Assembly (NCBI RefSeq): GCF_000172995.2
Contig: NC_014731.1
Coordinates: 30,001-62,000, forward strand
Length of the DNA: 32,000 nt
Source: Halogeometricum borinquense DSM 11551
Lineage (GTDB): Archaea; Halobacteriota; Halobacteria; Halobacteriales; Haloferacaceae
Direction of reading: 5' to 3'
The translations under genes were made by a program, and so were the position numbers. Under the pieces are notes generated by a model. The model was given only the letters and a program-made list of their open reading frames with translations. It did not search any database and had not been told where the DNA came from. Shown here piece after piece: positions 4,404 through 25,126 of the stretch. Numbering within the stretch: the stretch's first letter is position 1; the number at the start of each line of letters is the position of its first letter.

Positions 4404-4429
4404 TGCAATTGTAGAGTGGTACTACTCGG

Positions 4430-5617
4430 TTATTTCTTCCGAGGTGACTCAAATACCCCCTGCTGTGTGGCTACGAGGAGAACCCTCCCACCGATAATAA
4501 ACGCAAGAGCAAGGGCTGCCAGCATTATGAGAGGACCAAACAAATCGGCAAGCACACCGCCGACTATGCGAAACACGATTGCAGCGACACCGCCAGCCAT
4601 CGAGACGACACTCAGGATAGTGGCCCGCCGGTGGTCCCGTGTCCGGTCGTTTATGACCCCACTTTGGAAGGTTTGACTGACCCGCCAGATGGCCTCCATA
4701 CTAATGAACGACGGGACAGCGAGGACAGACAGTATTGGGAGTAGCACGAAGCTGGCAGCCAACAGAATTGGGGCAATGCGGAACCAGCGATGGAGACCGA
4801 TGATACGCTCGATCCGATCAGTAACCGCGCTCGCTCCGGCAGCAACGATATTGAAACTCGCATACAGAACACCGACAGCGATTACCGGAAGCCCGACTTG
4901 GTCGCCAACGACAATTGGTTGGATGAACGTTCGAGTGACCTCAACCAGTCCAAACAGGAGAACGGTATAGCTGACGAAGCCCCTCACACCGGGTTGGGTG
5001 AACACCTGCTTCAGTTCCTGCCGCGTCGTTTCGAGCCGAGTTGATTCTGCCGGAAATGGGCGTTTCATATTTGCGGTCGATGGAAACGAGAGTACGATCG
5101 CTGCGTTTCCACCGAGGAGGAGAGCAGTAAGGAGAAACGGAGCGGTGAGTGATTGGCTGTAAACGATACTTCCAAGAATCGCGGTCGCTGCCGTGGCGGC
5201 TAGTTTAATTGCTTGCCCCCGACCGTGGACGGTCGTGTATGCGTCGACTGCACCACTGTTTGCAAGGGCACTGTAGAGCCACGCATCGGCCGTTCCTGAC
5301 CGGAAAGTTCTCCCGATTGCCCACGTGCCAAGGGCAAGCGCAAATGGAACGATGGTGTGGGACAGCGCGAGTCCCCCAACACCGACGGCTGTCACAAGGG
5401 CGCTGAGGAAGAGACTCCGACGGTACCCGAGTCGGTCTCCAATATAGCCGGTTGGAATTTCTGCGGAAACAAGGACAGCCCAGTATAACGCCCCGAGAAA
5501 GCCAATTTCGGAATAGGAGAGGCCACGGGCTTGGAGCAGTAGAACCCAGACGGGAGCGATGAGTCCTTGGGTTTCAGTGAGTGAATAGAGGTAATATCGC
5601 CAGCGGGGGTCTCGCAT
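4430..5617 (-). CDS. MFS transporter
   Basis: 395 aa, about 12 hydrophobic helices in a typical MFS arrangement. It ends 26 nt before the HAD/Nudix start, so the two are probably co-transcribed. Confidence 0.85.
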   Translation of the reverse strand: MRDPRWRYYLYSLTETQGLIAPVWVLLLQARGLSYSEIGFLGALYWAVLVSAEIPTGYIGDRLGYRRSLFLSALVTAVGVGGLALSHTIVPFALALGTWAIGRTFRSGTADAWLYSALANSGAVDAYTTVHGRGQAIKLAATAATAILGSIVYSQSLTAPFLLTALLLGGNAAIVLSFPSTANMKRPFPAESTRLETTRQELKQVFTQPGVRGFVSYTVLLFGLVEVTRTFIQPIVVGDQVGLPVIAVGVLYASFNIVAAGASAVTDRIERIIGLHRWFRIAPILLAASFVLLPILSVLAVPSFISMEAIWRVSQTFQSGVINDRTRDHRRATILSVVSMAGGVAAIVFRIVGGVLADLFGPLIMLAALALAFIIGGRVLLVATQQGVFESPRKK

Positions 5618-5863
5618 GTGTTATCACGAGGTTCGAGATAGCGTCATATGATTGTCGGGTGATTCCGTTTCAAACGAGGCCGTTCGACAATTACCCACTA
5701 CAAAGCGCTCAATAATCCTCATTTAGACGCTCACGCAAGTGGATTTGAGACCAGACTTGATCACGATTGTCACGACCTCGCTCCGTCAGCGTCACAGCAT
5801 GATCGCCAGTGCAGGCGTAACTAATTAAGAAAGCAGATACCATCAACAGCGAAGTAGTAATCA

Positions 5864-8116
5864 ATGACGCTCGAAGACGACGCACGAGAGTATCACCGGC
5901 GTATTCCACCGGGGAAAGTAGAGATCGCAACGACGAAGCCAACAAACACCCAGCGTGACCTCTCGCTGGCGTACTCGCCGGGAGTCGCGACACCGTGTCG
6001 CGACATCGCCGAGAACCCAGAGCAGGCGTATCGTAACACCGTAAAGGGGAATCTCGTCGGTGTCGTCTCCAACGGTTCGGCCGTTCTGGGCCTCGGTGAC
6101 ATCGGCGCACAGGCTTCCAAGCCCGTGATGGAGGGGAAAGGCGTCCTGTTCAAACGCTTCGCCGACATCGACGTGTTCGACATCGAACTCGACCTCGATG
6201 ACCCCGATACGTTTACGCAGGCCGTCGCGGCGATGGAGCCGACGTTCGGGGGCATCAACCTCGAAGACATCAAAGCGCCCGAATGCTTCGAGATCGAGTC
6301 GGATCTCTCAGAACGAATGGATATTCCAGTGTTCCACGACGACCAGCACGGCACTGCCATCATCTCCGGGGCCGCACTACAGAACGCCGCCGACATTGTC
6401 GGGAAGAATCTCTCAGATCTGCACGTCACTTTCGCGGGTGCGGGCGCGGCAGCGACAGCGACTGCCCGGTTCTACGTCTCGCTCGGCATCCCTCGGGAGA
6501 ACATCACGATGTGCGATATCGACGGGATCCTCTCGGAGGCTCGGGCCGAAGCTGGTGACCTTAACGAGTTCACCGAGCCGTTCGCCTGCGGGGAGGACGA
6601 CGGCGAACTCGAAGACGCGATGGAAGGCGCGGACGTGTTCGTCGGCCTCTCAGTCGGCGGAATCGTTTCCCAAGAGATGGTACGGACGATGGCCGACGAT
6701 CCGATCATCTTCGCGATGGCGAACCCCGACCCCGAGATCACCTACGAGGACGCCAAGGACGCGCGCGACGACACGGTCATCATGGCAACGGGCCGGTCGG
6801 ATTACCCGAACCAAGTGAACAACGTCCTCGGCTTTCCGTTCATCTTCCGCGGAGCGCTCGACGTTCGCGCAACCGAAATCAACGAGGAGATGAAGCTCGC
6901 TGCTGCGGATGCACTCGCAGACCTCGCCCGTGAGGACGTTCCAGATGCCGTCGTCAAGGCCTACGGCGACGAGCCACTCCAGTTCGGTCCCGACTATCTG
7001 ATCCCGAAACCACTGGACCAGCGCGTCCTCTACGAGGTGACACCCGCCGTCGCGCGGGCTGCGATAGAGAGCGGCGCAGCCAGAACGGAACGCGACCTCG
7101 ACGCCTACCGCGAGGAACTCGAAGCGCGCCTCGGCAAGTCCCGCGAGATGATGCGTGTCGTGATGAACAAGGCGCAGTCGGATCCAAAACGAGTCGCACT
7201 CGCCGAGGGAGAAAACGAGAAGACGATTCGTGCAGCGAGTCAACTCGTCGAAGACGGCATCGCTGAACCCGTTCTCATCGGACGGAGAGACCACATTCTA
7301 CAGAAAACTGAAGAGCTAGGGTTGGACTTCGACCCGGTTGTTGTGAACCCACGCGAGGGGGAGTGGACCCACTACGTGGACTACCTGTACGAGCACCGGC
7401 AGCGAAAAGGTCTCACACGGACGGAAGCAAACGAACTCATCCGGCAAGACTCGAACTACTTCGCCAGCGTGATGGTGGAAATGGGCGATGCCGACGCGAT
7501 GCTCACTGGACTGACGAACCACTACCCGTCGGCGCTCCGACCACCACTGCAGGTTATCGGCACGGCCGAGAACGCGAACTACGCGGCCGGTGTCTACATG
7601 CTGACGTTCCGGAATCGAGTCGTCTTCTGTGCGGACACGACCGTCAACCTCGATCCCGACGAGGAAGTACTCGCGGAGGTGACGAAACACACCGCGGAAC
7701 TGGCCAAGCGCTTCAACGTCGAACCGCGGGCGGCGCTCCTATCGTACTCGGACTTCGGGAGCGTCGAGACCGAAGGCGTTCGCAAGCCACGCAACGCGGT
7801 GAACATCCTGCACGACGACCCCGACGTCGACTTTCCGGTCGATGGGGAGATGCAAGCGGACACTGCTCTCGTCGAGGAGATGCTGACAGAAACCTACGAG
7901 TTCGCAGAACTCGACGGTCCGGCGAACGTGCTCGTGTTCCCAAACCTCGAAGCGGGCAACATCGGCTACAAGGTGCTCCAGCGACTCGGCGGTGCCGAGG
8001 CCATCGGCCCGATGCTCGTCGGCATGGACAAGCCCGTCTACGTCCTCCAGCGCGGTGACGAGGTCAAAGACATTGTCAACCTGGCGAGCGTCGCCGTCGT
8101 GGACGCACAAGAATGA
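5864..8116 (+). CDS. maeB: NADP-dependent malic enzyme (malic enzyme domain fused to a phosphate-acetyltransferase-like domain)
   Basis: 750 aa. The N-terminal half is a malic enzyme with its NAD(P)-binding region (FAGAGAA). The C-terminal roughly 320 aa is PTA-like. This is the classical MaeB architecture. Confidence 0.93.
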
Positions 8117-8151
8117 CGCAAATAGAACCAATTGAGCTAACAGTGTTTTAA

Positions 8152-8421
8152 TTACAAATATGAAAACGTATTCTCATCCATATGAATAGCCAGAAATAGA
8201 ATCTGCTGAAATAAACAAATCCCGACCACAATTGTCAAGAGGAGTGTGATAAGTTTGGGGAATGGTCCCATATTTAGAGAAATCACTGGCCGAATGTAGA
8301 GATAGCTGAAAAGGATTCCCACGACAGATAGAGTCGTCTGAAGCGTAGCCACAAGAACAGGATGATTGAACTCCTCTTTGCCGAAGAATTCGTTAAACCT
8401 CGATGCAAGCTCTGATTGCAT
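8152..8421 (-). CDS. Small hypothetical membrane protein (89 aa)
   Basis: ATG start and two to three hydrophobic helices. The gene is AT-rich, atypical for the window. A 6-bp inverted repeat flanks the upstream TATA region (8440-8460). Confidence 0.4.
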   Translation of the reverse strand: MQSELASRFNEFFGKEEFNHPVLVATLQTTLSVVGILFSYLYIRPVISLNMGPFPKLITLLLTIVVGICLFQQILFLAIHMDENTFSYL

Positions 8422-8530
8422 ACTCCCGAATACTACCTAATGTCATGTATATTTTGACATGTTGTTGATAATTCTATTGATGACAAAAGCCGTCCAATAG
8501 GGAAGTTGAGGAGAGTCAAGGGAGGGCTGT

Positions 8531-8929
8531 TTAACTGGACCAGTAATATAGCATTAGTTGACGCGTTCGTTGAGATTGAGTCGGATCGGGAACAGCAAGA
8601 CTCGAATCGATTTGGTCACGTGTCTGAAACGCAACTCGGCCCGTTTCTTCGCTTACTGGCTCGAAGACGAAATATGACCGGTGACCTTCCAGGAGATAGT
8701 CAACGGTGTGGTCTCTCTCAATCGCTCCCGTATACAACTGTTGCCCGATCTCTAACAGTGCAGGCAAATCCAGGGCGAGAAAGTCGCCAACGAACTCGGG
8801 AGCCCAGCCACTCCAGGATATCTCCGCTTCGTTTTCGTATGTGTTGATCCGGATTCCACCAGCAGTGATCTTAATCGCACCACTGCCGGTCGATATCATC
8901 TCGGGGCCGTCAGCAGTTACGATACTCAC
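8531..8929 (-). CDS. Hypothetical acidic protein (132 aa)
   Basis: An acidic, halophile-like ORF. The longest form starts at a GTG (8929), with an alternative ATG at 8899. No recognisable motif. Confidence 0.45.
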   Translation of the reverse strand: MSIVTADGPEMISTGSGAIKITAGGIRINTYENEAEISWSGWAPEFVGDFLALDLPALLEIGQQLYTGAIERDHTVDYLLEGHRSYFVFEPVSEETGRVAFQTRDQIDSSLAVPDPTQSQRTRQLMLYYWSS

Positions 8930-9163
8930 TTGGGAGCGTGAGTGGCGGCGTCCGCTTGTCTGCTTGAGTCCACTGGCCAGTCAATGCTACTCCCGAACGA
9001 AATTGAGACAGCCCTCTAGTATGTTCAAAGACCCGTTTTATCGTCCCCAACATACATATTCGAGGTTTTACAAGTCGTGTCATGGACCAGAGTAAACGCT
9101 GGTCGGGCTATCGTACCAAACCGTTCTCACTCGAGAGTAACATAAGAATCTCGCCCAGTACGC

Positions 9164-11428: not shown

Positions 11429-12211
11429 TTACTCACCCCCTTTGATGATATCAACGTCTTTCGGCACTGCGACGAGATCGGCTTCCTCGATCTTCGAAGC
11501 GTGCTCGTCTGCGAGTGCGAGAATTGATTCAACTCGTGCCTGAGCGTAGTTGTCCCCGGACGCTAGCGGAAGGACTAGGTAGTCATCATGACCGAATACT
11601 GTCACTTCGCCGTGGTTCCGTGTCTGAACTCTGCGTTCGAGAGGAGTAGCACTCTCATCCGTTGAGTCCGCTACAGATTCGGGCCGACCAGAATCAGCCA
11701 CTTCTTGCCCCACGGACACTTCGAGGTCGATACTGTCAGCACTCACTCGAACACCGCTGCCCTCTGCTTGGACGTGGACAGAACGACCGGCCTGGACTTG
11801 ATCGACCACTGCGTACTGAGCGCCTAACTGTCGGTAGTTCGTGTTGACCGGTAGTCCCCGCTCTGAATTCGTGATCTGCACCGACTTGTCGACGGGGTAG
11901 TAGTCACCCCCAGCAGCTACGACAGTATCGTGTTCCCTGAAGAGTTCCACAGGCGCATTCGTCAGCGTCAGAACACCTCGGCTCTGGTCGAGCGCGTACC
12001 CCGCAGTTCCAGTTCGTGAGATTGTCGGGGCATCGGAAGGAGCCTCGTACTCTTCCTTGATTTCGACGAAGCGAACAGTACCTTGTTCGAACTTGTTGGG
12101 ATCGGCGGCAGCCACCCCGGCTCCGCTACCAAGGCCGAGCGTGAGGACGCCGAGTCCAGCAGTGGACTTTAGTACGCCACGCCGTGTCTGAGTAACTTCG
12201 TTGTCTGGCAT
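11429..12211 (-). CDS. Tat-secreted hypothetical protein
   Basis: 260 aa. The twin-arginine signal (TRRGVLKSTAGLGVLTLGLGSGAGVAAA) has no lipobox Cys. The mature part is acidic. Confidence 0.75.
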   Translation of the reverse strand: MPDNEVTQTRRGVLKSTAGLGVLTLGLGSGAGVAAADPNKFEQGTVRFVEIKEEYEAPSDAPTISRTGTAGYALDQSRGVLTLTNAPVELFREHDTVVAAGGDYYPVDKSVQITNSERGLPVNTNYRQLGAQYAVVDQVQAGRSVHVQAEGSGVRVSADSIDLEVSVGQEVADSGRPESVADSTDESATPLERRVQTRNHGEVTVFGHDDYLVLPLASGDNYAQARVESILALADEHASKIEEADLVAVPKDVDIIKGGE

Positions 12212-12637
12212 TGTTTGATCCGCATTGTCGGCTCGGTCCCGCGGCGAATTTGCTCTAACCGTTCGGAAAATAGTGAGCTTAGGGTTGGCTTACGATGTTT
12301 TCAAGAAAATCCGAAACGAAGCCACACCATTCCTCTTGCTCGATTTAAATCCCAGTAAGTTTCAATTTAGATGACTACTTGCTGAACTGGTCGAGGGGAT
12401 CCCCGAATCAGTTGCCACTCTACAAGATTTGTGAACAGGATTTCCAAGACCTATTTTAGATATGATAAAAACGACAGTTCAAAACGCTCTCGCTGGGGAA
12501 CCTACCCCTCAGCACGACCTCAACAGACTATCAGTAACTGAATATTTCAATAGTCCCTATAATCTATATTACAGCTAATTGTAGGTCGGGGATAGAGTTT
12601 AATATGAATTAGTGGTGACATTAGCACACATTGGAAA

Positions 12638-13429
12638 ATGGTTCCACCAAGCCCTAGTCCGCTTGCTGAGACTCTCCAAGCACGATTAGACTGTTTACGG
12701 ACAATAAATGACGACCCTCAAGAGAAGCGAACGCTCACAGACTCATTAGATATCCCGCGTTCCACCCTCGACGACATCGTCCGAGAGCTGGAAGAAAAGG
12801 GCCTTGTTTCATATAGGGATGGGGAATGGCACACTACTCCCTGGGGACAACTGGCGTGTGAGATGCATTATTCTTACTTGAACAGCATCCGGGACCTCAT
12901 TAAAGCAAAACCAGTTCTGGACATCCTCCCGCCAAACCACTCGCTTAGTGAGTCAGTTATAGTTGATGCCGAAGTGAAACTACCTCATCCGAATGTATCG
13001 GGTTGTCTCATGGGAACGATTTTGGAACGTCTTGAGAAGGCTAATGACATCCGTATAGCGACACCTCAAGTCTTGACAGGGTATTACGAGCAGTTTTACC
13101 AGTATTGCTCTAACGATGAAACATCAGTAGAAATTATTCTTGATCAACAGATCAGAGACTGGTATGAATCCCAAGACTCTGAGAAAGTAAATGAATTATC
13201 CAATTGTCCATCCACTTCTGTGCGCTGGAGAGAGATTCCCTTTGAGTTTGGTCTGGTTCTACTTGACGATGAAGAAGTTATCGTCTCCGTCTTCGCCGAA
13301 CATGGCATTGCTGGCCTCATCATGAATGATTCACGAGATGCAATGGCCTGGGCAAGGGACAGATATGATTCAATTAGACAAGATTCTGAGTCAACGAAGA
13401 ACAGTAATAAAATCTCTGGGGTAACGTAG
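12638..13429 (+). CDS. Winged-helix transcriptional regulator (possibly FilR1/DUF1724-like)
   Basis: 263 aa. The N-terminal wHTH is RTLTDSLDIPRSTLDDIVRELEEKGLV, followed by a roughly 180-aa C-terminal domain. The gene and its flanks are AT-rich. Confidence 0.62.
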   Translation: MVPPSPSPLAETLQARLDCLRTINDDPQEKRTLTDSLDIPRSTLDDIVRELEEKGLVSYRDGEWHTTPWGQLACEMHYSYLNSIRDLIKAKPVLDILPPNHSLSESVIVDAEVKLPHPNVSGCLMGTILERLEKANDIRIATPQVLTGYYEQFYQYCSNDETSVEIILDQQIRDWYESQDSEKVNELSNCPSTSVRWREIPFEFGLVLLDDEEVIVSVFAEHGIAGLIMNDSRDAMAWARDRYDSIRQDSESTKNSNKISGVT

Positions 13430-13930
13430 GCTAAAGTCAGATTTAACCGTATTTAGCAAGCTGGGTTTGGCACCATCAATTTTCTACCACCTGTTCTAAA
13501 CGTTTGGTAGACTAGTTAAACGTGGAATTTGCATTCACCGTATTGCACCGCCCGGCGAACGAATAACAGAACCCCACGACTGGCTGATACAACTTACGGC
13601 TCTCCAACTCCGGTCGCTCCCGAGAGGCATTCTGTTGTCGATACAACTGCCGGTGTCGGATTGCGAGTGGGGTGATAGGCTCTACGTCAACATCAAACCG
13701 AACGCTTCCGTGAGCGAGGTTTGCCGGGAGCGGCCGAGCGATTGATCAGCGTCACGATTCCCGGAACGATTGGATTCGGCACTGAACGCCGACAAGACAC
13801 GCGAAGTCATTTCGCGCTACTATCTCGCAAACGCCATCGAATTCCGTTCGGGCGTGAAGTCGTACGGAAATCAAGGATGTCCGTGATGGCGAGATGCGCT
13901 GCATCTCGAACCACTTGACTCCGGGGCGAC

Positions 13931-16467: not shown

Positions 16468-17480
16468 ATGCGTGTCGCAGCTTTCAGCGATTTCACTGGT
16501 CCAAATAGCATTTCGATTATCGATCGGCCAATACCTGAACCCGATAGACATGAGGCTGTAGTCGAAGTCGAGGCGTGTGCGATCAATCGTCACGACCTCT
16601 GGATTCTCGAAGGAGACTCCGCAGTGATAGATACGGACGACCTGCCATTCGTTAGTGGTCTTGACCTTGCAGGAACTGTCCAGAATATCGGTGAAGACTT
16701 ACTGGTGTCGAGTCCGGTGATCGTGTAGTTCTCTGCCCGAACGTAACGTGCGGAACATGTCGCTACTGTCGGGAGGGTCCGGAAAATCTCTGTGAAAATT
16801 ACTCGCTCTATCACGGAGGACTTGCTGAGGCTGCCCGGGTACAGGCTGACCGTCTCATCCCCCTTCCGGATTCCGTGAGTACGGTTGAAGCGGCCGCTCT
16901 TCCGACAGCCTACATGACCGCGTACCATATGCTTCGCCGACTAGAAATCGGACCGACTGACCTCGTGTTTATTCCCGGTGTGACTGGAGGTGTCGGGGTC
17001 GCCGGTGTGCAACTCGTAGCCTCCCTTGGTGCCCACAGCATCGGGACGTCTTCGTCTCAAGTAAAACTCGACCGCCTCAAATCGCTCGGTCTTGACTACG
17101 CAATCAAAAGCACCGACCCAAACGAGATTGAGGATGCGGTCACAAACATCGGCTCGGTTGACGGTGTACTTAACCACCTCGGAGGAGAGTACACCCAGCT
17201 TGGGTTGGATGTATTGCGGCGTGATGGTCGGATGGCGGTCTGCGGGCGGACAGCTGGTAATAAATCTGTAATCAACATCTCAGATCTATTCCTCGGCCAC
17301 AAACGCATCATCGGGAGTACAATGGGAACACAACGTGATTTGGAGACCCTGATAGGACTGGTTGCAGCCGGTTCTCTCACACCTGAGATTGACGAAACCT
17401 ACTCGCTTGAGGATACTGAAGCGGCGTTCGTGGCGATGCAGGACCGCGAGAGCGTCGGAAAGCTCGTTGTCATCCCCTAG
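16468..17480 (+). pseudogene. Zinc-type alcohol dehydrogenase / quinone oxidoreductase (MDR family), frameshifted
   Basis: ORF 16468-16728 (MRVAAF...NIGED) stops prematurely. The sequence continues in another frame from about 16698 (LTGVESGDRVVLCPNVTCGTCRYCREGPENLC...) into ORF 16875-17480. A single frameshift near 16697-16701 restores a roughly 337-aa MDR protein. Confidence 0.75.
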
Positions 17481-17728
17481 TTCGTTCTAAATAGAGATGA
17501 TTTGACCAGTCGTTCACTTGATCTCAGAGTCCACTAAATAAGCGATCCAGTCTGCTATGACTTTTGACTCACCACGTCGTGATAACGGAATCTAATCACG
17601 CTCTTGAGCCTGTGTTTCTTCTTGTTGCTGCTTGAACACAACTCCGGAGAATGATTTTGATGCGTGCCTTCTGTTCGGCTCTGTTGAAATCCTCAGGAAG
17701 TTACATGTTCGCCGTGTAATTCGATGAG

Positions 17729-17812
17729 ATGAAGGCCCTCCCGAAGTCGCAGATTCTCCGGTTTACTGAGAAGGCGATCCATCTGGCACGGCGAGCTGTC
17801 GCTCGATACTGA
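17729..17812 (+). mobile_element. N-terminal 27-codon remnant of a haloarchaeal IS transposase (IS5-family-like)
   Basis: MKALPKSQILRFTEKAIHLARRAVARY* matches the N-terminus of a haloarchaeal transposase family that continues RYSSKFSKRRYT..., as I remember it. Here the ORF terminates and the homology ends. Confidence 0.4.
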
Positions 17813-17853
17813 GACTATCCAAGGGGTGGTGCGAAAGATCACTTCTCAGTATT

Positions 17854-18030
17854 TTACCTAAGATTGAAAAGAACGAACCCAGAAGCGAGACCGCCTGCAA
17901 CAGCCGGAATAATCGATTCAAGTAGACCTCCGTCAAAGAGAACTAATTCGAAAACACTCGATATTACCACCCAAACCACCACATTAGTCGTTATGAATAC
18001 CCATTGGTCTTCTAAGTCAAATGAGGCCAT
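17854..18030 (-). CDS. Possible small two-helix membrane protein (58 aa)
   Basis: This ORF is below the track cutoff and was found by hand: MASFDLEDQWVFITTNVVVWVVISSVFELVLFDGGLLESIIPAVAGGLASGFVLFNLR. It has two hydrophobic helices, is AT-rich, and has no clear promoter. Confidence 0.25.
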   Translation of the reverse strand: MASFDLEDQWVFITTNVVVWVVISSVFELVLFDGGLLESIIPAVAGGLASGFVLFNLR

Positions 18031-18639
18031 ATCTGCGAATTATGTTCCAGTCTCTAATCCGTACTGGTGTCTTCGCACTCTTCACCAACCGGCTGTTTCA
18101 GTCGATAATGTGTTTGAAGAATAGGATTTCAACAAAGCTAAAAATCCATAATTCAAGAGCACTGAACGTAATGAGAGCTATTCCCAGATTAGTCAGAGGA
18201 CGCTATGTGAAGTACATCCCTTTGAAAAGACAGATAATTTACAATTACGATGGTAATATTGTCACGCTGTAAATTTCCAATTCGCCGAAATGATTCCGGT
18301 CTAACTGGAATCAGTGAACGGATTAGACTCGCCTTTGGTGATAAAAAACAACAGTGTGTTTCCCATCGTGTTCAGGTCTTCGTGTCCGATAGGATATACA
18401 AGATGAAAACCATCCTCCACAGTCTGGGACCAACTGTGATCTAGTAGGCGACTCTACGCTTCGCCCCTCTTCGGTAACCTATCTCAGTTATCCCCTATCA
18501 TATCATATGAATTTCTATCCTGTTGGAAAGTTGCCCCAATAGCCCGAATCAAGGCCGAGAATATTATTTCACTACTTGACAATCAGAAAACATAAATATT
18601 TTTATGTAATCAGACACACATAACAGATGGTGTTTCACA

Positions 18640-18945
18640 ATGCCAACTAACTTAGAAACGGTCCAGTTCACGTTCTCAGACGTCACGGGTCACGAGTACA
18701 CTGACTCGGAAAGTCTCGGCGCTAGTGGACAGGTTATAGCGGCAGAGACGGCTATCAAGAGCTTCGAGATCGGATTTGAGGGCAACGACCGCGAACTCAT
18801 GTCCGAGAAGATTCAGACCGATGCCGACGTGCACGGCGACACAATCAGTGTGAATCTTGAAGCACTCTTCCGCGACGCCAGCGGTCATATCGACGACCCG
18901 TACGGTGGCAATGTCGAGGTACTCGTTATTACCGAAAACGAGTAA
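18640..18945 (+). CDS. Small acidic hypothetical protein (101 aa)
   Basis: ATG start and acidic composition. An AT-rich promoter with the inverted repeat ACATAAA-N4-TTTATGT (18590-18607) lies about 35-50 nt upstream. A T8 run lies 27 nt after the stop. Confidence 0.55.
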   Translation: MPTNLETVQFTFSDVTGHEYTDSESLGASGQVIAAETAIKSFEIGFEGNDRELMSEKIQTDADVHGDTISVNLEALFRDASGHIDDPYGGNVEVLVITENE

Positions 18946-18971
18946 CTCGACTGTCTGACTGATTGGTTCGA

Positions 18972-18979
18972 TTTTTTTT
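18972..18979 (+). terminator. Oligo-T (T8) archaeal-type terminator
   Basis: TTTTTTTT lies downstream of the 18945 stop. Archaeal RNAP terminates at oligo-T tracts. Confidence 0.4.
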
Positions 18980-19017
18980 GCGTTAGCGTATCACAGTTAT
19001 TATCGGCGGCGTGTACG

Positions 19018-20388: not shown

Positions 20389-21189
20389 TCAGTCTTCCCA
20401 GCGGGATAGCATGACTAGCGCGGCCACGAGTGCAACGAGCGCTGTGCCAACGGTGAATCCGGGAACTTCCGTACTGGCGGTACCAGCATCGGCTGCTTCG
20501 TTGACTTTGTTAGTCGTTGGAGCGCCTACAGCTGTCTCCTCGCTCGCGTCGTCGGTCCGAGTCGGTTCGACGCCCATCTCCGTCATGGTGTTCTCGTCGG
20601 GGCCGGTTTCGCTCGCCGTCGCTGTCACCGCGCCGGCGTTGTCGCTTTCGTCCGCACCACCGGCGGCGTCGATCACGTCGAGTGTCCCCGGGTCAGTTCT
20701 CGGATTGACACTGGATCCGTTATTGTCGTCGAGTCGGTCGATGGTGACACGCAGGCTCGTTTCGCCAGCCTGCTGGCCACGGAGCGTAACCGACCCGAGC
20801 GTCACGTTTGACGCGCCGGGTTCGACGGTCTTGTTCAGGTCGGCCGCCTTCAGTCGGACGGCCGTACCGTCGGCAATACCCTCGACCTCGCCGAGACCGA
20901 ATTCGTCGGCCACCTCCGCATCGACGACTGTCGCGGCGTCGCCGTTCGTCATCTCGACTGTGAGGGCAAATCCGGCGACGCCGTCGGGAGCTTCGGTCAG
21001 CGTGAGGTCAACCGTCGTCTCCTCACCTTCCTCGACACTCGTCCCACCAGCGACGACCGTCGGATCGCTGGCAGCCAGCGCCGGGGCAGCCAATCCCGTG
21101 ACGACGACCGAGAGTGCGAGTCCGGCCGCGAGCCAGCGCGTTGCCGTTCGCACCGTCCCGACATCAGGCATCGTCGCGTCAGATCTCAT
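20389..21189 (-). CDS. Cell-surface cohesin-domain protein with a PGF-CTERM (archaeosortase A) anchor
   Basis: It has a signal-like N-terminus (RWLAAGLALSVVVTGLAAPALAA). Its cohesin-like domain (LTLTEAPDGVAGFALTVEM...) is paralogous to the one in the upstream gene. A Thr/Asp/Glu-rich linker precedes the C-terminal PGFTVGTALVALVAALVMLSRWED. The start is ambiguous: ATG at 21189 (overlaps the upstream stop), ATG at 21171, or GTG at 21273. Confidence 0.8.
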   Translation of the reverse strand: MRSDATMPDVGTVRTATRWLAAGLALSVVVTGLAAPALAASDPTVVAGGTSVEEGEETTVDLTLTEAPDGVAGFALTVEMTNGDAATVVDAEVADEFGLGEVEGIADGTAVRLKAADLNKTVEPGASNVTLGSVTLRGQQAGETSLRVTIDRLDDNNGSSVNPRTDPGTLDVIDAAGGADESDNAGAVTATASETGPDENTMTEMGVEPTRTDDASEETAVGAPTTNKVNEAADAGTASTEVPGFTVGTALVALVAALVMLSRWED

Positions 21190-22906
21190 CGAACAGCGTG
21201 TTGATGTCGTCGAAGTCAACGCGACCGTTGCCGTTGAAGTCGAACGAGTCGGCGTTGGACTGAACGGCGTCACTGTCTCGGTGTTCGAAGAACACCACTA
21301 CATCTTCGAAGTCGGCCTCGCCGTTGCCGTTCATATCCTCGTACAGTCCGTCTCCGTCGGGGTCGGTCGGAAGGTCGTTGTCGCCGATACGGGCGATGTC
21401 GGCGACGGTCACGACGCCGGTGTCGGTCGCGGCGTCGATTGCCGAGCCGTCGGCATCGGAGTCGAGAGCATTCACGGAGAGTGTGACGCCGGTCTCACCC
21501 GCGCTCTGGAGACCGACAGACAGGGTCGCAAGCGATACGTTGGCAGCCCCGCCCTCGACCGCGTCTTCGATGTCCGAGGCTGCCAGCGTCACCGACGAGT
21601 CATCATCAGCAACGGACACCTCAGTCACCCCGCTCGGGAACGCATCTGCCACGGTCGCACTCTCGATAGATGCCACGGCCGCATCGTCAACTGAGACAGT
21701 TACGTCGAAACCGGCGAGACCGTCAGGTGCATCGGATAGTGACAGTTCCGCCGGAACAGTACCGCCGACACCACCGTTCTCAGGGAACGACACCGAGAGG
21801 GTCGGTGATTCGCCGTCGTCACCATCGGAGCCCCCAGAGCCGTCCGTGTTCGGTTCGTAGCTGTCGAACAGACTGAACGCGTCGTCGAAGTTCGTCGTGA
21901 CCGGAATCGACGCGTTCCCGTTCACGTTCGAACTGCCGTCAGTGACCGCGCTTCCGAGTCGAAGGTCGGTGCCGAGTTCGGACGCGAGGCGCTCTAGGTT
22001 TGCCGTCGTGCTGCCCGGCGCGGCGGCGCTCCCGAGTAACACGACTGCACCGTCGTTGGCAGCGAAGTCCGAAAGCGCCGCCACCTCGTCGGCAGTGAAT
22101 TCCGAGACGGGCGTGGTGACGATGATCGCCCGCGCGTCGTCGAGACGCTCGCTGTACGCGGTGTTGACCTGTTCGAGGGTGAGGCCGACACCTTCGAGAT
22201 AGCGCTGGTAGTACGCTGCGTCCTCGCTGGACAGTGCGTAGCCAGCGCCGAATTGGCCGTGTCCGCCGTCGATGAGTACATCTCCGTTCTTATCGGAGAG
22301 AGAGTCGATCAGGTTCGAGAGGAACGTGAAGTTACCGTAACCGCTCGTGTCGGCAGCGAATCCTTCGTCGGCCTCGTAGCTCTCATCGATAAACGGCGAG
22401 CCGACGAGCGCGACGCCAGCGTCGGCATCAACCCCGACGAGCGGAGTGCCGTCCTCGCTCGCAACCGGTACGCGGCCGTCGAGCGAGGCGGAACCGGTCA
22501 CTGCGGCAGCATCGGGGAAGTACAATTCCTGAACCGCACTGTTTCGGATTTCGGCAGCCGTCGAGATATCGCTCTCGTTCCAGAGACCGCGCCCTTCGGT
22601 GCGGGCTGTATGTTCTAAGTCCCAGAACTCGTCGTGACGGGAGAGCGTGGAACCATATACCCGCGCGAGTCCGTCCTCGATCATCTTCGCGTTGTACGTC
22701 GTATCGCGGTTCCCGTCGCCAGTCGCATCGTAGTCAGCGTACGCGAGCACGCGGTCGAACGGATCCCTGACACCCTCGTTCTCATCGAAGTAGATCTCGA
22801 TGGTTTTACCGGAGAGTTCCTCCTCGGCGACCGATGTCGCCTGATTCGCCCAGTTGACGAGGTAGGGGTACTGTACGTCGCTACTGCTGTTGTCCTCACC
22901 GCCACC

Positions 22907-23575
22907 GAAGTACGGGAACGAACTGTCGAACCGCGAGGTGCTGAACTCGAAGTTGCCCTCGCTGTCCACGACCTGCGCGTCGTTGAAGCGGAACGGAGCC
23001 CCCGCCGCGTCGAGGATGTCGTTCGACGCAGTGGTATTATCATAATCCTCGTAATCGGACTTGCCCATCGCGTACACCGCTCCGCCGTCCTCGACGAACG
23101 TCGTGAGCGCGCTGAGTTCGGTGTCGGAGGGTTGCTGAGGCTGGCTGCAGACTACGAGATCGATCCCGGAGAGGTCGGCATCCAGCGAGTCAACGGTGGA
23201 CACGGTGTAGCCGGCACTCTCGGCGTTCGATACGAAGTTCGAGAAGCTGTCGAATCCGTCGAACTGCCCGTTGTCGTACCAGGCGACGGTCGCGTCGCCA
23301 CCGGTCAGGTCGTCCCACACGTTCAGGACGAAATTCGAGGCGTCCGAGTCGAGACTGGCGTCGTTGACGAGAGCGGAACTGACCGCCGCAACGTTGCCGT
23401 CGATTGCCGCGAGCGGAATAGCCGAATCGGGATAGGTAACAGCGTCGCCGTTGCCGTCCTCGTCGTTCACTGCCGAGCCTTCAGGTGCAAGCACCGCGGT
23501 CGTTTCCCCGTCGGTGTACGGTGATCCGTCAGCGGCCAAGAGGGTGGTCGCCGAGTAGAAGTTGAGCGTTGAAAC
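22907..23575 (-). repeat. Intragenic module copy 2, inserted inside the SNase domain
   Basis: VSTLNFYSATTLLAAD...GNGDAVTYPDSAIPLAAIDGNVAAVSSALVNDAS...FVLNVWDD...FRFNDAQVVD...FPYF. A third, more diverged copy lies at about 21866-22459. Confidence 0.7.
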
Positions 23576-23812
23576 CGACCGCACCCCGTCAGTCGTTTCC
23601 TCGTAGGAGAGTCCCTCCCATTCCTCGGGTCGCTCGGCATCCGAAGCACTGGCCGACTCCGGCGTGTCGATGCCGAGGACGCGGATCGACTCTTCCGTGC
23701 CGTCGTCGAACTCCACGTCGAACGTGTCACCGTCGGCAACGGAGATCACATCGACGGTGTACCGCTTGCTCGGATCGAGTTCCGACCCGGAGCTGATCCC
23801 GTCCCGGTCTTC

Positions 23813-24500
23813 GAAGTAGGGGAACTCATCGTTGAACTGGCTCGTCGTCGGGACGTAGTTGACGCCAGTGTTGTTCGTCGCGTCAGTGACCTGCGCGTCG
23901 TTGAAGCGGAAGGAGAGCCCGAGTTCCGAGGCGATCGTGTTGAGGTTGTCAGTCTCGTCGAAGTCGTCGAAGTCGGACTGGTGGTGAAGAAAGACAGCAC
24001 CACCCTCGGCGACGAACGACGAGAGCGCGCTGAGTTCGGCATCAGAGAACGCGTCAGACGGTGACGTGATGACGACTGCACTCGCCCCGCTGAGGTCGGC
24101 CGTCAAGTCACTCGTCGCCTGCACGTCGTACCCGTTCGATTCGGCGTACGTCTCGAACGCACTGAATCGAGCGAGGTTGTAGTACTGACCGTGTCCCTCG
24201 TCCCAGAGTACTGTCCCACCGTCAGCCAAGTCGTCCCAAACGTTCAGGATGAACTCCTCATTGCCGGTCGAAAAGTCTTGGTCGTCGTCGACCAGCATCG
24301 TCCCCGAAGCCGGCGACAGAGCCGTCAACACCGACTAGAGGGATCGACGTTTGGGGATAGCTGACCGCGTCGCCGTTTTCGTCGGCGTCGGTTATCGACG
24401 CCGAGTCCTCCGCCCACACTGCGATCACCGAGTTATCGGTGAGTTGCTCTTGGGAGGCGTCGAGCAACGAGTTCGTCGAGTCGAAAGCCAAGTCCGAGAT
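23813..24500 (-). repeat. Intragenic module copy 1 (about 65-aa leader segment + DUF4350-like domain)
   Basis: ISDLAFDSTNSLLDAS...ENGDAVSYPQTSIPLVGVDGSVAGFG / TMLVDDD...FILNVWDD...FRFNDAQVTD...FPYF aligns along its length with copy 2. Confidence 0.7.
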
Positions 24501-25126
24501 GGTAGTTGCGTTCTGAGTCGTCGTGTCGGATGCCGCACTCGCAGTTCCGCTGATTGAAGCGGCAGCGAGCGTTGCAAGGAAGGTTCGTCGCCTCACGTCT
24601 TTGACCCTCGGCCGTAAAATAATTAAATTAACTAATTAATGTAAATAGACATATAGTGTCAATCATTAATACGGACCGCAACGTTCGACCGAAGAAAGTA
24701 TCTTAAAAACTCGACTGCTCTCAGTAGTACATACCAGACGGTTGAACAGGGTGAAGTAAAAGTATAGGAATAAATTCGAGTCAGCCGAAAACTGAGAATA
24801 CGGACCAGTGTCATCGCCCAGTAGTCAGCGAACGCGCAGCGGTAGTCCGGTGAGAAACCATAGTACTCCTCACAGCAGGAACACCACAGTACGAGAGACT
24901 AAGCGCTGATTCTTGGCGTGCCTGACTGCAGTCCCTAGTTGTGGATCACAACACCGAAAGAGAGAACGAATACACACTATCTATTCGGGACCAAAGACAA
25001 CAAAATACGGGCAGCCTGACGATTTCGATTGCCTGTGTGAACGAGAACAGTGCCGGAAAATCGTCCCGAAGCATTTCCCAGATAAGTGTCAAAGGAAATA
25101 TTTGTGTGGAGGCACTTTTCATCTAT

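What the first reader, a model, noticed from the sequence alone, without database searches (positions are those of the whole stretch)
20389..24596. Two-gene cohesin/dockerin/PGF-CTERM module predicted to display, and possibly polymerise, a giant nuclease on the archaeal surface
What the sequence shows:
- Gene 1 (21179-24596) has a Tat signal, three DUF4350-like modules, an SNase domain that retains its catalytic residues, one cohesin-like domain and a C-terminal two-repeat dockerin (DMNGNGEADFEDV / DFNGNGRVDFDDI).
- Gene 2 (20389-21189) overlaps or abuts gene 1's stop. It encodes only a signal peptide, a paralogous cohesin, a Thr/acidic linker and a PGF-CTERM tail.

Established knowledge:
- Dockerins bind cohesins in a Ca-dependent way.
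- PGF-CTERM proteins are lipid-anchored to the haloarchaeal envelope by archaeosortase A.
- Non-cellulosomal cohesin/dockerin modules are known in archaea (for example Archaeoglobus fulgidus), but their functions are mostly unknown.

Inference:
- The anchor cohesin docks the nuclease at the cell surface.
- Because the nuclease also carries its own cohesin, it could act as an adaptor or form head-to-tail chains.
- A surface-tethered DNase scaffold could serve eDNA scavenging (a phosphorus/nucleotide source), biofilm-matrix remodelling or defence against incoming DNA.
- I am not aware of a described cohesin-dockerin nuclease display system.
Basis: partly seen in the sequence, partly recalled or inferred. 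Interest (0 to 1): 0.85.

Follow-up and report, generated by a model that had tools for sequence, protein, structure and literature searches.

The report
Cohesin-dockerin surface display of a haloarchaeal nuclease
A salt-loving archaeon encodes a very large secreted DNA-cutting enzyme that ends in cellulosome-type "plug and socket" modules, next to a small membrane-anchored socket protein; the same two-gene design also carries phosphatases in related species, which points to a cell-surface machine for harvesting phosphate from DNA.

Summary

**Source.** The window comes from Halogeometricum borinquense DSM 11551. The public record places it on a 339-kb plasmid.

**Gene 1 (minus strand).** It encodes a Tat signal, three DUF4350/GIFT modules, an SNase with its catalytic residues intact, one cohesin and a two-loop dockerin.

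- In this window the gene is split by one extra G at 24302-24305. Two other assemblies of the same strain lack that G and encode an intact 1138-aa protein.
- The SNase domain is itself interrupted by the second DUF4350 module.

**Gene 2.** It encodes a signal peptide, a cohesin, a disordered Thr/acidic linker and a PGF-CTERM tail.

**Domain evidence.**
- Neither cohesin reaches Pfam's Cohesin model.
- AlphaFold models of both cohesins (domain pLDDT above 90) match solved cohesins almost exclusively (Foldseek E about 1e-9).

**Comparative evidence.**
- The gene pair is conserved in all 9 related nuclease loci examined.
- The same cassette (cargo-cohesin-dockerin followed by an anchored cohesin) accompanies PhoX alkaline phosphatase in 16 haloarchaeal genomes.
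- PhoD and choice-of-anchor-I enzymes carry the same cohesin-dockerin ending.

**Limits and verdict.** Binding was not tested. This is a new variant of a known kind. The closest analogue is the Ruminococcus bromii amylosome (Amy4/Sca2).

The parts
24616..24627 (-). AT-rich TATA-like element about 20-30 nt upstream of the GTG start of gene 1 (putative promoter of a leaderless or short-leader transcript)
   Evidence: Read directly from the sequence. This is an inference; no archaeal promoter tool was available.
24534..24596 (-). Gene 1 start (GTG at 24596-24594) and Tat-type signal peptide MRRRTFLATLAAASISGTASA
   Evidence: ORF list and translation. The twin-arginine RRxFL motif is visible by inspection. 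Intact orthologues are called with the same start.
24302..24305 (-). GGGG homopolymer with one extra G relative to other assemblies; it frameshifts gene 1 in this window
   Evidence: Alignment to L001/L002. It is the only difference in 4312 bp from the same-strain assemblies L086/L087. The record annotates 112-aa and 1039-aa products.
23798..24383 (-). Module 1: beta-rich pre-segment plus DUF4350/ABC_transp_aux/GIFT domain
   Evidence: Pfam PF09822, PF14258 and PF23355, each with multiple stretches. Boundaries come from internal repeat motifs.
23612..23764 (-). SNase N-terminal half (DGDT, R35, DTPE catalytic and Ca-binding residues)
   Evidence: NCBIfam NucI match to residues 183-229 of the 1050-aa ORF. 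Alignment to staphylococcal nuclease 1syb.
22892..23467 (-). Module 2: pre-segment plus DUF4350 domain, nested inside the SNase domain
   Evidence: It lies between the two SNase matches. Coordinates.
22571..22870 (-). SNase C-terminal half (D83, R87 equivalents, GLAxV helix)
   Evidence: Pfam SNase match to residues 491-586 of the 1050-aa ORF, 38 bits. NCBIfam EcnA E 3.2e-22. Alignment.
21848..22462 (-). Module 3: pre-segment plus DUF4350 domain
   Evidence: Pfam stretches. Coordinates.
21395..21808 (-). Cargo-type cohesin of gene 1
   Evidence: AF2 pLDDT 93.3. Nearly all of the top 50 Foldseek PDB hits are cohesins, E about 1e-9. No Pfam Cohesin hit.
21182..21373 (-). DPDGDGxYED motif plus two-repeat dockerin (DMNGNGEADFED-helix, linker, DFNGNGRVDFDD-helix)
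   Evidence: Dockerin_1 scores 15.7-15.9 bits here, below the cut-off, but matches 17 of 17 relatives, best E 3e-8. The profile hits solved dockerins and EF-hands. Helices at model residues 170-179 and 202-211.
21067..21189 (-). Gene 2 start (ATG at 21189, overlapping gene 1 by 11 nt; an alternative ATG at 21171 is used in the public annotation) and signal peptide
   Evidence: Translation. Orthologues overlap or abut in the same way. The 260-aa annotation is ADQ68855.1.
20671..21066 (-). Anchor-type cohesin of gene 2
   Evidence: AF2 residues 44-173 have pLDDT above 90. Nearly all of the top 50 Foldseek PDB hits are cohesins, with 6kge_A at 1.5e-9 and 2xdh at rank 3.
20467..20670 (-). Thr/Asp/Glu-rich disordered linker
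   Evidence: pLDDT about 50, no secondary structure. Composition by inspection.
20392..20466 (-). PGF-CTERM sorting signal (PGF, hydrophobic helix, short charged tail)
   Evidence: TIGR04126 scores 31.8 bits against a cut-off of 24.5. C-terminal helix at residues 251-265 in the model.

Best explanation
The two genes form a cohesin-dockerin surface-display cassette.

**Proposed steps**
1. Gene 1 encodes a roughly 120-kDa nuclease exported by the Tat pathway. It has an SNase catalytic core and three DUF4350/GIFT modules of unknown role.
2. Its C-terminal Ca2+-binding dockerin plugs into the cohesin of the gene-2 protein.
3. The gene-2 protein is held at the cell envelope by a PGF-CTERM tail: lipid-anchored if ArtA processes it, otherwise anchored by its C-terminal helix. 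A long, probably glycosylated linker projects its cohesin outward.
4. The nuclease's own cohesin, which belongs to a separate and old 'cargo-type' clade, offers a second socket. Another dockerin-bearing enzyme or another nuclease copy could attach there.

**Likely biological role:** breakdown of extracellular nucleic acid at the cell surface as part of phosphate scavenging.

**Shown here**
- Domain identities, from sequence and predicted structure.
- Intact catalytic residues.
- The conserved, translationally coupled gene pair.
- The same cassette on phosphatases.

**Inferred**
- Dockerin-cohesin binding and which partner is used.
- ArtA processing.
- Chain formation.
- The physiological role.
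For: **Domains**
- SNase and DUF4350 hits.
- Catalytic residues conserved.
- Cohesin folds for both proteins.
- Relative P0125 passes Pfam Cohesin.
- Dockerin_1 matches 17 of 17 relatives, and the profile hits PDB dockerins.
- PGF-CTERM is above its cut-off.

**Gene pair**
- Overlapping or abutting in all 9 nuclease loci across at least 3 named genera plus MAGs.

**Generality**
- Among 38 haloarchaeal cohesin+dockerin cargo genes recovered, 28 are followed by a cohesin with a C-terminal anchor.
- Of these 28, 25 are the nuclease loci and the PhoX genes: all 9 nuclease loci (two are near-identical H. borinquense contigs) and all 16 PhoX genes.

**Cohesin clades**
- Cohesins fall into four clean clades: nuclease-cargo, nuclease-anchor, PhoX-cargo and PhoX-anchor. 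The two cohesins of a pair are therefore old, separately maintained paralogues.

**Shared dockerins**
- Dockerins on different phosphate-related cargo within one genus are near-identical, for example Halorientalis PhoX and choice-of-anchor-I. This implies shared sockets.

**Precedents**
- R. bromii Amy4 (enzyme + cohesin + dockerin, binds its own cohesin) docks on the sortase-anchored single-cohesin protein Sca2 (PMC4611034).
- Haloferax volcanii uses eDNA mainly as a phosphorus source, and this depends on a surface thermonuclease (PMC3929857).

**Gene intact in the strain:**
Against: - No binding was computed or measured. AlphaFold-Multimer was not available.
- The window's own cohesins miss Pfam Cohesin entirely, and its dockerin is below the Pfam cut-off.
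- The dockerin profile scores EF-hand proteins higher than solved dockerins.
- Dockerin divergence tracks the cargo's own cohesin (r 0.78 and 0.91) more than the anchor cohesin (r 0.70 and 0.64).
- The single-chain model has a high pTM of 0.81. Both this and the previous point fit cis or self binding, although physical linkage confounds the correlation.
- Several orthologous anchors fail the PGF-CTERM model.
- artA is not in the window.
- In the window as given, gene 1 is frameshifted.
- The phosphate theme comes from loci ranked by similarity to this dockerin, so the sampling is biased.
- There are no expression data.
Confidence: 0.6

Rival explanations
1. The cohesin and dockerin of gene 1 bind each other, either in cis (a closed, perhaps stabilised or auto-inhibited C-terminus) or head-to-tail between copies (free or loosely attached polymers). 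The gene-2 cohesin would then serve a different dockerin protein.
For: - The single-chain AF2 model of cohesin plus dockerin has pTM 0.81. That is higher than expected if the two domains were placed independently.
- Dockerin divergence correlates best with the cargo's own cohesin, with partial r of 0.68 and 0.82 after removing catalytic-domain distance.
- Amy4 of R. bromii binds its own cohesin.
Against: - Cohesin and dockerin lie next to each other on one polypeptide, so their co-variation is expected from linkage alone.
- Model coordinates could not be inspected, so the interface is unknown.
- Cis binding does not explain why an anchored cohesin gene follows 25 of 25 nuclease and PhoX cargo genes.
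Confidence: 0.15
2. The modules resemble cohesin and dockerin in fold only and do not pair. The beta-sandwiches would act as spacers or glycan/S-layer binding domains. The Ca-binding tail would be a halophilic EF-hand-like stabiliser or ligand binder. The neighbouring gene would be an unrelated surface protein.
For: - No Pfam Cohesin hit.
- A profile search of PDB sequences found only weak CBM2 matches for the beta domain.
- EF-hand proteins outscore dockerins for the tail.
- A haloarchaeal paper treats dockerin type I domains as substrate-binding modules (PMC10963439).
Against: - Nearly all of the top 50 structural matches are cohesins, most from solved cohesin-dockerin complexes.
- Cohesin-type and dockerin-type modules co-occur in one operon across two unrelated cargo families.
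- Archaeal cohesin-dockerin pairs have been shown to bind, as cited in PMC9012536.
Confidence: 0.12
3. In this strain gene 1 is a pseudogene inactivated by a +1 G frameshift, so the module is a relic here.
For: - The window has GGGG where relatives have GGG.
- The public record annotates two separate products.
Against: - Two independent assemblies of the same strain are identical apart from this base and encode the intact 1138-aa protein.
- The site is a homopolymer, a classic sequencing-error context.
- There are no other disabling changes.
- Orthologues are intact everywhere else.
Confidence: 0.08
4. The display system is real, but its main role is not nutrient scavenging. It could remodel an eDNA-containing biofilm matrix or degrade incoming viral or foreign DNA at the surface.
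For: - Surface nucleases modulate biofilms in bacteria, and eDNA is a haloarchaeal biofilm component (PMC3929857, PMC5118699).
- The locus is on a 339-kb plasmid in DSM 11551.
Against: - The sister cassettes carry PhoX, PhoD and choice-of-anchor-I rather than defence or matrix genes.
- No defence genes flank the pair in the window.
Confidence: 0.15

Closest known systems
Ruminococcus bromii amylosome: Amy4 (GH13 + cohesin + dockerin) and Sca2 (single cohesin, sortase-anchored) (PMC4611034)
   Same: - An enzyme carries both a cohesin and a C-terminal dockerin.
- A separate small protein has one cohesin and a C-terminal sorting signal that ties it to the cell surface.
- Multimerisation through the enzyme's own cohesin is possible.
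   Different: - The cargo here is a nuclease (and phosphatases in sister cassettes), not amylases.
- The organism is an archaeon, and the anchor signal is PGF-CTERM/archaeosortase rather than LPXTG/sortase.
- The two genes are adjacent and overlapping.
- Binding is demonstrated in R. bromii but not here.
Archaeoglobus fulgidus non-cellulosomal cohesin/dockerin proteins (Bayer 1999; Voronov-Goldman 2011; structure 2xdh)
   Same: - Archaeal and non-cellulosomal, with cohesin and dockerin in the same protein.
- 2xdh is among the top structural matches of both cohesins: rank 20 and rank 3.
   Different: - The A. fulgidus proteins have no known enzymatic cargo of this kind.
- No PGF-CTERM anchor partner has been described for them (from my own knowledge and citations; the primary papers were not readable here).
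Clostridial cellulosome anchoring scaffoldins (for example OlpA, OlpC: one type I cohesin + SLH domains; 3ul4, 4dh2)
   Same: - A single type I-like cohesin on a cell-surface anchor receives a dockerin-bearing enzyme directly.
- These cohesins are among the best structural matches.
   Different: - They use SLH anchoring to a bacterial cell wall.
- Their cargo is glycoside hydrolases.
- The dockerin here has an extra conserved DPDGDGxYED motif before the first repeat.
Haloferax volcanii Hvo_1477 surface thermonuclease (PMC3929857)
   Same: - A haloarchaeal SNase-family nuclease held at the cell surface.
- It is needed for growth on eDNA, which is used mainly as a phosphorus source.
   Different: - Hvo_1477 is a 327-aa lipobox lipoprotein with a lamin-tail domain.
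- It has no DUF4350 modules, no cohesin or dockerin, and an uninterrupted SNase domain.
Dockerin/cohesin proteins of ANME and methanogenic archaea (PMC9012536)
   Same: - The same archaeal dockerin family. The pattern search with this dockerin recovered many Methanomicrobia and ANME loci.
- Proteins with a dockerin plus several cohesins exist in both groups.
   Different: - Their cargo is mostly NosD/beta-helix, PKD and protease proteins.
- No nuclease or phosphatase cassette with a PGF-CTERM cohesin was described there.

Membership tests
Cohesin (type I-like; Pfam PF00963) | Nine-stranded beta-sandwich (jelly-roll) fold superimposable on solved cohesins | tested here: met
   Gene-1 domain: AF2 pLDDT 93.3, Foldseek E 1.3e-9, TM (target) 0.75-0.81; nearly all of the top 50 hits are cohesins. 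Gene-2 domain: pLDDT above 90, E 1.5e-9, TM (target) about 0.78.
Cohesin (type I-like; Pfam PF00963) | Sequence match to the Pfam Cohesin model at its gathering score | tested here: not met
   No hit at E<=10 for either window domain. Relative P0125 (44% identical to the gene-2 domain) scores 25.8 bits against 24.1 over the full model, so membership holds only by transitive homology.
Cohesin (type I-like; Pfam PF00963) | Binds a dockerin | not testable with these tools
   No multimer prediction or experiment was available. The only indirect evidence is conserved adjacency.
Dockerin type I (Pfam PF00404) | Two roughly 22-residue repeats, each a Ca-binding loop (D-x-N/D-x-N/D-G-x-x-D-x-x-D) followed by a helix, at the C-terminus of a secreted protein | tested here: met
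   The sequence has DMNGNGEADFED and DFNGNGRVDFDD with ligand positions 1, 3, 5, 9 and 12 conserved across 17 relatives. Modelled helices lie at residues 170-179 and 202-211, with a short helical linker between them.
Dockerin type I (Pfam PF00404) | Sequence match to Dockerin_1 at its gathering score | tested here: inconclusive
   The window scores 15.7-15.9 bits against 22.9. All 17 relatives match at E<=1, best 3e-8. Dockerins of the same archaeal family, on a PhoX and a GH10 cargo, reach 22.9 and 34.5 bits. EF-hand models score similarly.
PGF-CTERM / ArtA substrates (TIGR04126) | C-terminal PGF motif, hydrophobic helix and charged tail, preceded by a Thr-rich linker | tested here: met
   TIGR04126 scores 31.8 bits against 24.5. 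The tail reads ...STEVPGFTVGTALVALVAALVMLSRWED. The linker is disordered.
PGF-CTERM / ArtA substrates (TIGR04126) | Processing and lipid attachment by archaeosortase A | not testable with these tools
   artA is not in the window, and the rest of the genome could not be searched. Several orthologous anchors fail the PGF-CTERM model but keep a C-terminal helix and RRR tail.
Staphylococcal nuclease / thermonuclease (Pfam PF00565) | Match at the gathering score and conserved Ca-binding and catalytic residues (D21, R35, D40, T41, E43, R87) | tested here: met
   SNase scores 38 bits against 21. EcnA E 3.2e-22. The alignment to 1syb shows DGDT, R..DTPE and D..R.LAY.
Staphylococcal nuclease / thermonuclease (Pfam PF00565) | Contiguous single OB-fold domain | tested here: not met
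   The two halves are separated by about 247 residues that contain DUF4350 module 2. This nested arrangement is shared by the whole haloarchaeal family.
Cellulosome/amylosome-type multi-enzyme system | Dockerin-bearing enzymes plus a cell-anchored cohesin protein encoded in the same genome | tested here: met
   Both are encoded in one overlapping gene pair, conserved in 9 loci.
Cellulosome/amylosome-type multi-enzyme system | Scaffoldin with several cohesins that gathers different enzymes; polysaccharide-degrading cargo | tested here: not met
   There is one cohesin per protein here, and the cargo is a nuclease. Multi-cohesin relatives (up to 8 cohesins, some with a C-terminal dockerin) exist elsewhere in the same cohesin family.

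The most novel reading that the evidence does not exclude
Haloarchaea may assemble cellulosome-like 'phosphate-harvesting' complexes on their surface.

- Nuclease, PhoX, PhoD and choice-of-anchor-I enzymes each end in a cohesin-dockerin adaptor.
- These could daisy-chain onto lipid-anchored single-cohesin proteins.
- DNA would then be cut and the products dephosphorylated in one tethered assembly next to the phosphate transporters.

The window's gene pair would be the nuclease arm of such a system.
Probability: 0.35. Interest if true: 0.8.

Novelty: new variant of a known kind. Interest (0 to 1): 0.68.

Why it matters
- Cohesin-dockerin systems are understood almost entirely as polysaccharide-degrading machines of anaerobic bacteria. 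In archaea the modules are known, but their functions are mostly unknown.
- This locus and its sister cassettes give archaeal cohesin-dockerin modules a concrete, testable job: holding a nuclease and phosphatases at the cell surface of extreme halophiles.
- Phosphate often limits growth in hypersaline waters, and extracellular DNA is abundant there.
- The finding links two topics that have been studied separately: archaeosortase/PGF-CTERM anchoring and eDNA metabolism.
- It also supplies salt-adapted cohesin-dockerin pairs that could be useful for protein display in high salt.
- Two annotation problems are flagged. The large DUF4350-SNase family is still often named 'ABC transporter'. The reference record of DSM 11551 splits this gene in two.

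Tried and rejected
- **Pfam on whole proteins and on isolated domains.** No Cohesin hit.
- **Profile of 21 cohesin-like domains against PDB sequences.** Only weak CBM2 matches at E 0.013, so sequence alone could not settle the fold.
- **The search for related loci with the cohesin alignment.** The dockerin alignment was used instead.
- **AF2 job with alignment A2.** The alignment was rebuilt as A4 and A5.
- **phmmer of a spliced SNase against PDB.** Nothing at E<=0.001. At E<=10 it gave the staphylococcal nuclease alignment used for the residue check.
- **Megablast of the locus against the plasmid collection.** No match. The plasmid origin came from the cluster look-up instead.
- **Mirror-tree test of which cohesin co-varies with the dockerin.** Run, but judged inconclusive because of linkage.
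- **Look-up of a non-dockerin nuclease (P0035) as a negative control.** Not on record.
- **Programmed frameshifting.** Rejected because same-strain assemblies simply lack the extra G.
- **Peer et al. 2009.** Could not be read.
- **Literature searches.** No paper held DUF4350 together with nuclease. None of the 12 top-ranked papers in the PhoX/dockerin search mentions dockerin. None of the listed papers combining cohesin/dockerin with haloarchaeal or nuclease terms describes a nuclease display system.

Full report
**What is in the window.**
On the minus strand there are two tightly packed genes.
- Gene 2 (21189..20389) is a clean 266-aa ORF.
A 112-aa ORF (24596..24258) begins with the twin-arginine signal MRRRTFLATLAAASISGTASA. 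A 1050-aa ORF (24331..21179) lies in a different frame.
- Removing one G from the GGGG run at 24302-24305 joins them into an 1138-aa protein.
- That protein has the same length as the Halogeometricum borinquense orthologue P0004 and is 98% identical to it.
- Other H. borinquense assemblies have GGG at this site.

**The frameshift is probably an artefact.**
- The exact gene-2 protein occurs in two further assemblies of strain DSM 11551: AOHT01000022.1 and a Logan assembly of ERR481281. In both, the upstream gene is an intact 1138 aa.
- Over 4312 bp these two contigs differ from the window by that single G and nothing else.
- An exact-sequence look-up shows that the window corresponds to the DSM 11551 record in which the gene is annotated as two proteins, ADQ68857.1 (112 aa) and ADQ68856.1 (1039 aa). 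Gene 2 is Hbor_33310, on a 339-kb plasmid.
- The frameshift is therefore most likely a homopolymer error, or a variant of one culture. It is unlikely to be a fixed pseudogene, and I treat gene 1 as functional.

**Gene 1 anatomy.**
- Pfam finds three stretches of the related ABC_transp_aux/DUF4350/IFT52-GIFT models and an SNase domain at 38 bits against a cut-off of 21.
- NCBIfam nuclease models match two separate regions: residues 183-229 and 488-586 of the 1050-aa ORF.
- The SNase domain is therefore split. The second DUF4350 module is nested in the loop after the DTPE motif (coordinates).
- An alignment to staphylococcal nuclease shows DGDT (D21), R35, D40-T41-P42-E43 and D83/R87 preserved.
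- The family is large in haloarchaea: 307 hits within a capped candidate set. It keeps this nested core but varies at the C-terminus.
- The C-terminal variants include lamin-tail, PKD and pre-peptidase domains, Gly/Arg-rich basic tails, short EF-hand-like helical tails, direct C-terminal membrane anchors, dockerin alone, and cohesin plus dockerin as here.
- That variation suggests the C-terminus decides where the enzyme sits.

**Are the modules really cohesin and dockerin?**

*By sequence, the cohesin call fails.*
- Neither domain hits Pfam Cohesin, even in isolation.
- A 21-sequence profile finds only weak CBM2 matches among PDB sequences.

*By predicted structure, it succeeds.*
- The last 212 residues of gene 1 fold with mean pLDDT 93.3 and pTM 0.81. 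Nearly all of the top 50 Foldseek matches in the PDB are cohesins, with E about 1e-9 and TM normalised to target of 0.75-0.81. They include the Archaeoglobus fulgidus cohesin 2xdh.
- In gene 2, residues 44-173 have pLDDT above 90 and give the same result, with 2xdh at rank 3. The rest of gene 2 is a disordered linker and a C-terminal helix.
- The gene-1 cohesin is 41% identical (E 5e-17) to the gene-2 orthologue P0001, which is itself 94% identical to gene 2.
- Relative P0125 passes Pfam's Cohesin cut-off over the whole model.

*The dockerin.*
- The window's own sequence is below the Dockerin_1 cut-off, at 15.7-15.9 bits against 22.9.
- All 17 relatives scanned match the model, best E 3e-8.
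- The family profile hits solved dockerins (5lxv_B, 2mte, 1daq, 6kgc_B), though EF-hand proteins score higher.
- The model shows loop-helix, short linker, loop-helix with no entering helix. That is the dockerin arrangement (my own knowledge).
- Both loops keep the Ca-ligand positions.
- An invariant DPDGDGxYED motif precedes the first repeat.

*The anchor tail.*
- The PGF-CTERM tail of gene 2 is above the TIGR04126 cut-off.

**Is the pair conserved?**
- Yes. The nuclease-cohesin-dockerin gene is followed by a signal-cohesin-linker-C-terminal-anchor gene. The spacing ranges from an 11-nt overlap to a gap of a few tens of nt.
- This holds in H. borinquense strains, Halostella litorea, Haloarchaeobius baliensis and H. 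iranensis, and several metagenomic contigs. It holds in all 9 loci examined.
- Nuclease variants with a dockerin but no cohesin of their own (P0092, P0062) have no cohesin gene next to them.

**The wider picture.**
- A pattern search of one genome per species with the dockerin alignment gave at least 167 confirmed loci in Halobacteria and Methanomicrobia, including ANME.
- I scanned the 79 retained loci with local HMMs for the cohesin, the dockerin and the nuclease core.
- Among 38 haloarchaeal genes that carry both cohesin and dockerin, 28 are followed by a small cohesin protein ending in a hydrophobic helix and basic tail.
- Clustering the cargo regions gave three main groups: a 16-member group that is PhoX alkaline phosphatase, the nuclease group, and a 3-member PhoD group. 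Singletons included a choice-of-anchor-I protein.
- All 16 PhoX genes have the anchor gene immediately downstream. The PhoD and choice-of-anchor-I genes do not.
- Dockerin-only proteins carry many other cargo types: NosD/beta-helix, subtilase, GH10, malectin and ThuA-GSDH.
- A neighbour-joining tree of the cohesins gives four clean clades: nuclease-cargo, nuclease-anchor, PhoX/PhoD/choice-of-anchor-I-cargo and PhoX-anchor. The cargo and anchor cohesins of one operon are only 24-41% identical. The two sockets are therefore old, separately maintained types, not recent duplicates.
- Within Halorientalis, the dockerins of PhoX and of the choice-of-anchor-I protein are nearly identical. This suggests they share sockets.
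- An exhaustive profile search found 2003 representative proteins with this cohesin type (1260 at E<=1e-10). Many are 220-300-aa single-cohesin anchors. Some are multi-cohesin, scaffoldin-like proteins with up to eight cohesins, and some of those also have a C-terminal dockerin.

**Mechanism.**
The best-supported model has four steps:
1. The nuclease is exported by the Tat pathway.
2. Its dockerin plugs into the cohesin of the gene-2 protein.
3. The gene-2 protein is tethered by its PGF-CTERM tail at the end of a long linker.
4. The nuclease's own cohesin provides a further socket.

Which cohesin the dockerin prefers is not resolved.
- Dockerin divergence tracks the cargo's own cohesin (Mantel r 0.78 for PhoX, 0.91 for the nuclease) more than the anchor cohesin (0.70, 0.64). 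However, cohesin and dockerin are physically linked on one polypeptide, which is enough to explain this.
- The high pTM of the single-chain model hints at a fixed cohesin-dockerin arrangement. I could not inspect the interface.

The phosphate-scavenging role is an inference from two things:
- The cargo set: SNase, PhoX, PhoD.
- Published work showing that Haloferax volcanii uses eDNA mainly as a phosphorus source through the surface thermonuclease Hvo_1477 (PMC3929857).

The sampling is biased, because loci were ranked by similarity to this dockerin.

**Comparison with what is known.**
- Archaeal cohesins and dockerins have been known since 1999 and are abundant in ANME (PMC9012536).
- The closest described architecture is the Ruminococcus bromii amylosome. 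Amy4 carries a catalytic module, a cohesin and a dockerin. It binds its own cohesin and also the sortase-anchored single-cohesin protein Sca2 (PMC4611034).
- Four things are new here: the cargo (a nuclease, with phosphatases in sister cassettes), the archaeosortase-type anchor, the fixed two-gene cassette, and the haloarchaeal setting.
- Among the papers listed by four full-text searches I found no description of such a system.
- I therefore class it as a new variant of a known kind.

**Context in the window.**
- No other cohesin or dockerin is encoded in the 32 kb.
- The neighbours are unrelated. One is a weak R2-like ferritin protein. Another is a DUF7347/DUF7351 protein (a likely regulator, by my reading). 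The rest include a Rce1-like protease, ABC sugar-transporter genes, a HAD-NUDIX fusion and a malic enzyme-PTA fusion.
- artA is not present in the window.

Noticed in passing
window 24302-24305: An extra G in a G-run splits gene 1 into two annotated proteins (ADQ68857.1, 112 aa; ADQ68856.1, 1039 aa) in the DSM 11551 record. Two other assemblies of the same strain lack it and encode an intact 1138-aa protein.
   Followed up: yes
window 22571-23764: The SNase domain is interrupted after its DTPE motif by a complete DUF4350/GIFT module of about 247 residues. This nested-domain arrangement appears to be shared by the whole haloarchaeal DUF4350-SNase family.
   Followed up: partly
L010, L012, L014-L016, L020, L021, L024, L025, L027-L029, L031-L033, L042 (around positions 3400-7000 of each): Sixteen haloarchaeal genomes carry a PhoX alkaline phosphatase ending in cohesin + dockerin. 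In each, a small cohesin protein with a C-terminal anchor follows immediately, the same cassette as in the window.
   Followed up: partly
L037-L039 and L022 (around positions 3800-6200): PhoD phosphatases and a choice-of-anchor-I protein carry the same cohesin-dockerin ending but have no adjacent anchor gene. The Halorientalis choice-of-anchor-I dockerin is almost identical to the PhoX dockerins of that genus.
   Followed up: partly
P0134-P0138 (representative proteins): These are scaffoldin-like proteins with 3 to 8 copies of this cohesin type. P0135-P0138 also end in a dockerin of the same archaeal family, and their sequences look haloarchaeal (acidic).
   Followed up: no
window 21340-21373 and alignment A3: An invariant DPDGDGxYED motif, a possible third Ca-binding loop, directly precedes the first dockerin repeat. 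It is a hallmark of this archaeal dockerin family: the scan, which used this motif and a second dockerin-repeat motif, matched at least 600 stretches.
   Followed up: no
proteins P0004-P0123: The nuclease family has highly variable C-termini. They include lamin-tail, PKD and pre-peptidase C-terminal domains, Gly/Arg-rich basic tails, short two-helix EF-hand-like tails (for example ...DGEIEREEFSAAVSDWARGEYTTAELRQILNAWITGG), direct C-terminal membrane anchors, and dockerin with or without cohesin.
   Followed up: partly
L006 8349-11408: In one metagenomic contig a second nuclease paralogue (P0075) lies immediately downstream of the anchor gene. It has its own C-terminal hydrophobic anchor instead of cohesin-dockerin.
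   Followed up: no
cluster look-up of gene 1: Several public records name the intact 1138-aa orthologue 'ABC transporter'. This looks like a misnomer carried over from the ABC_transp_aux/DUF4350 domain.
   Followed up: no
window 17000-19000, also 8000-9000 and 12000-13500: G+C drops to 0.44-0.50 against 0.55-0.63 elsewhere. The 17-19 kb stretch has only short ORFs. This may be foreign or non-coding DNA on the plasmid.
   Followed up: no
window 3174-4403 and 5864-8116: Two fusion genes were seen: a HAD-hydrolase + NUDIX fusion, and a malic enzyme + phosphate acetyltransferase-like (PTA_PTB) fusion.
   Followed up: no
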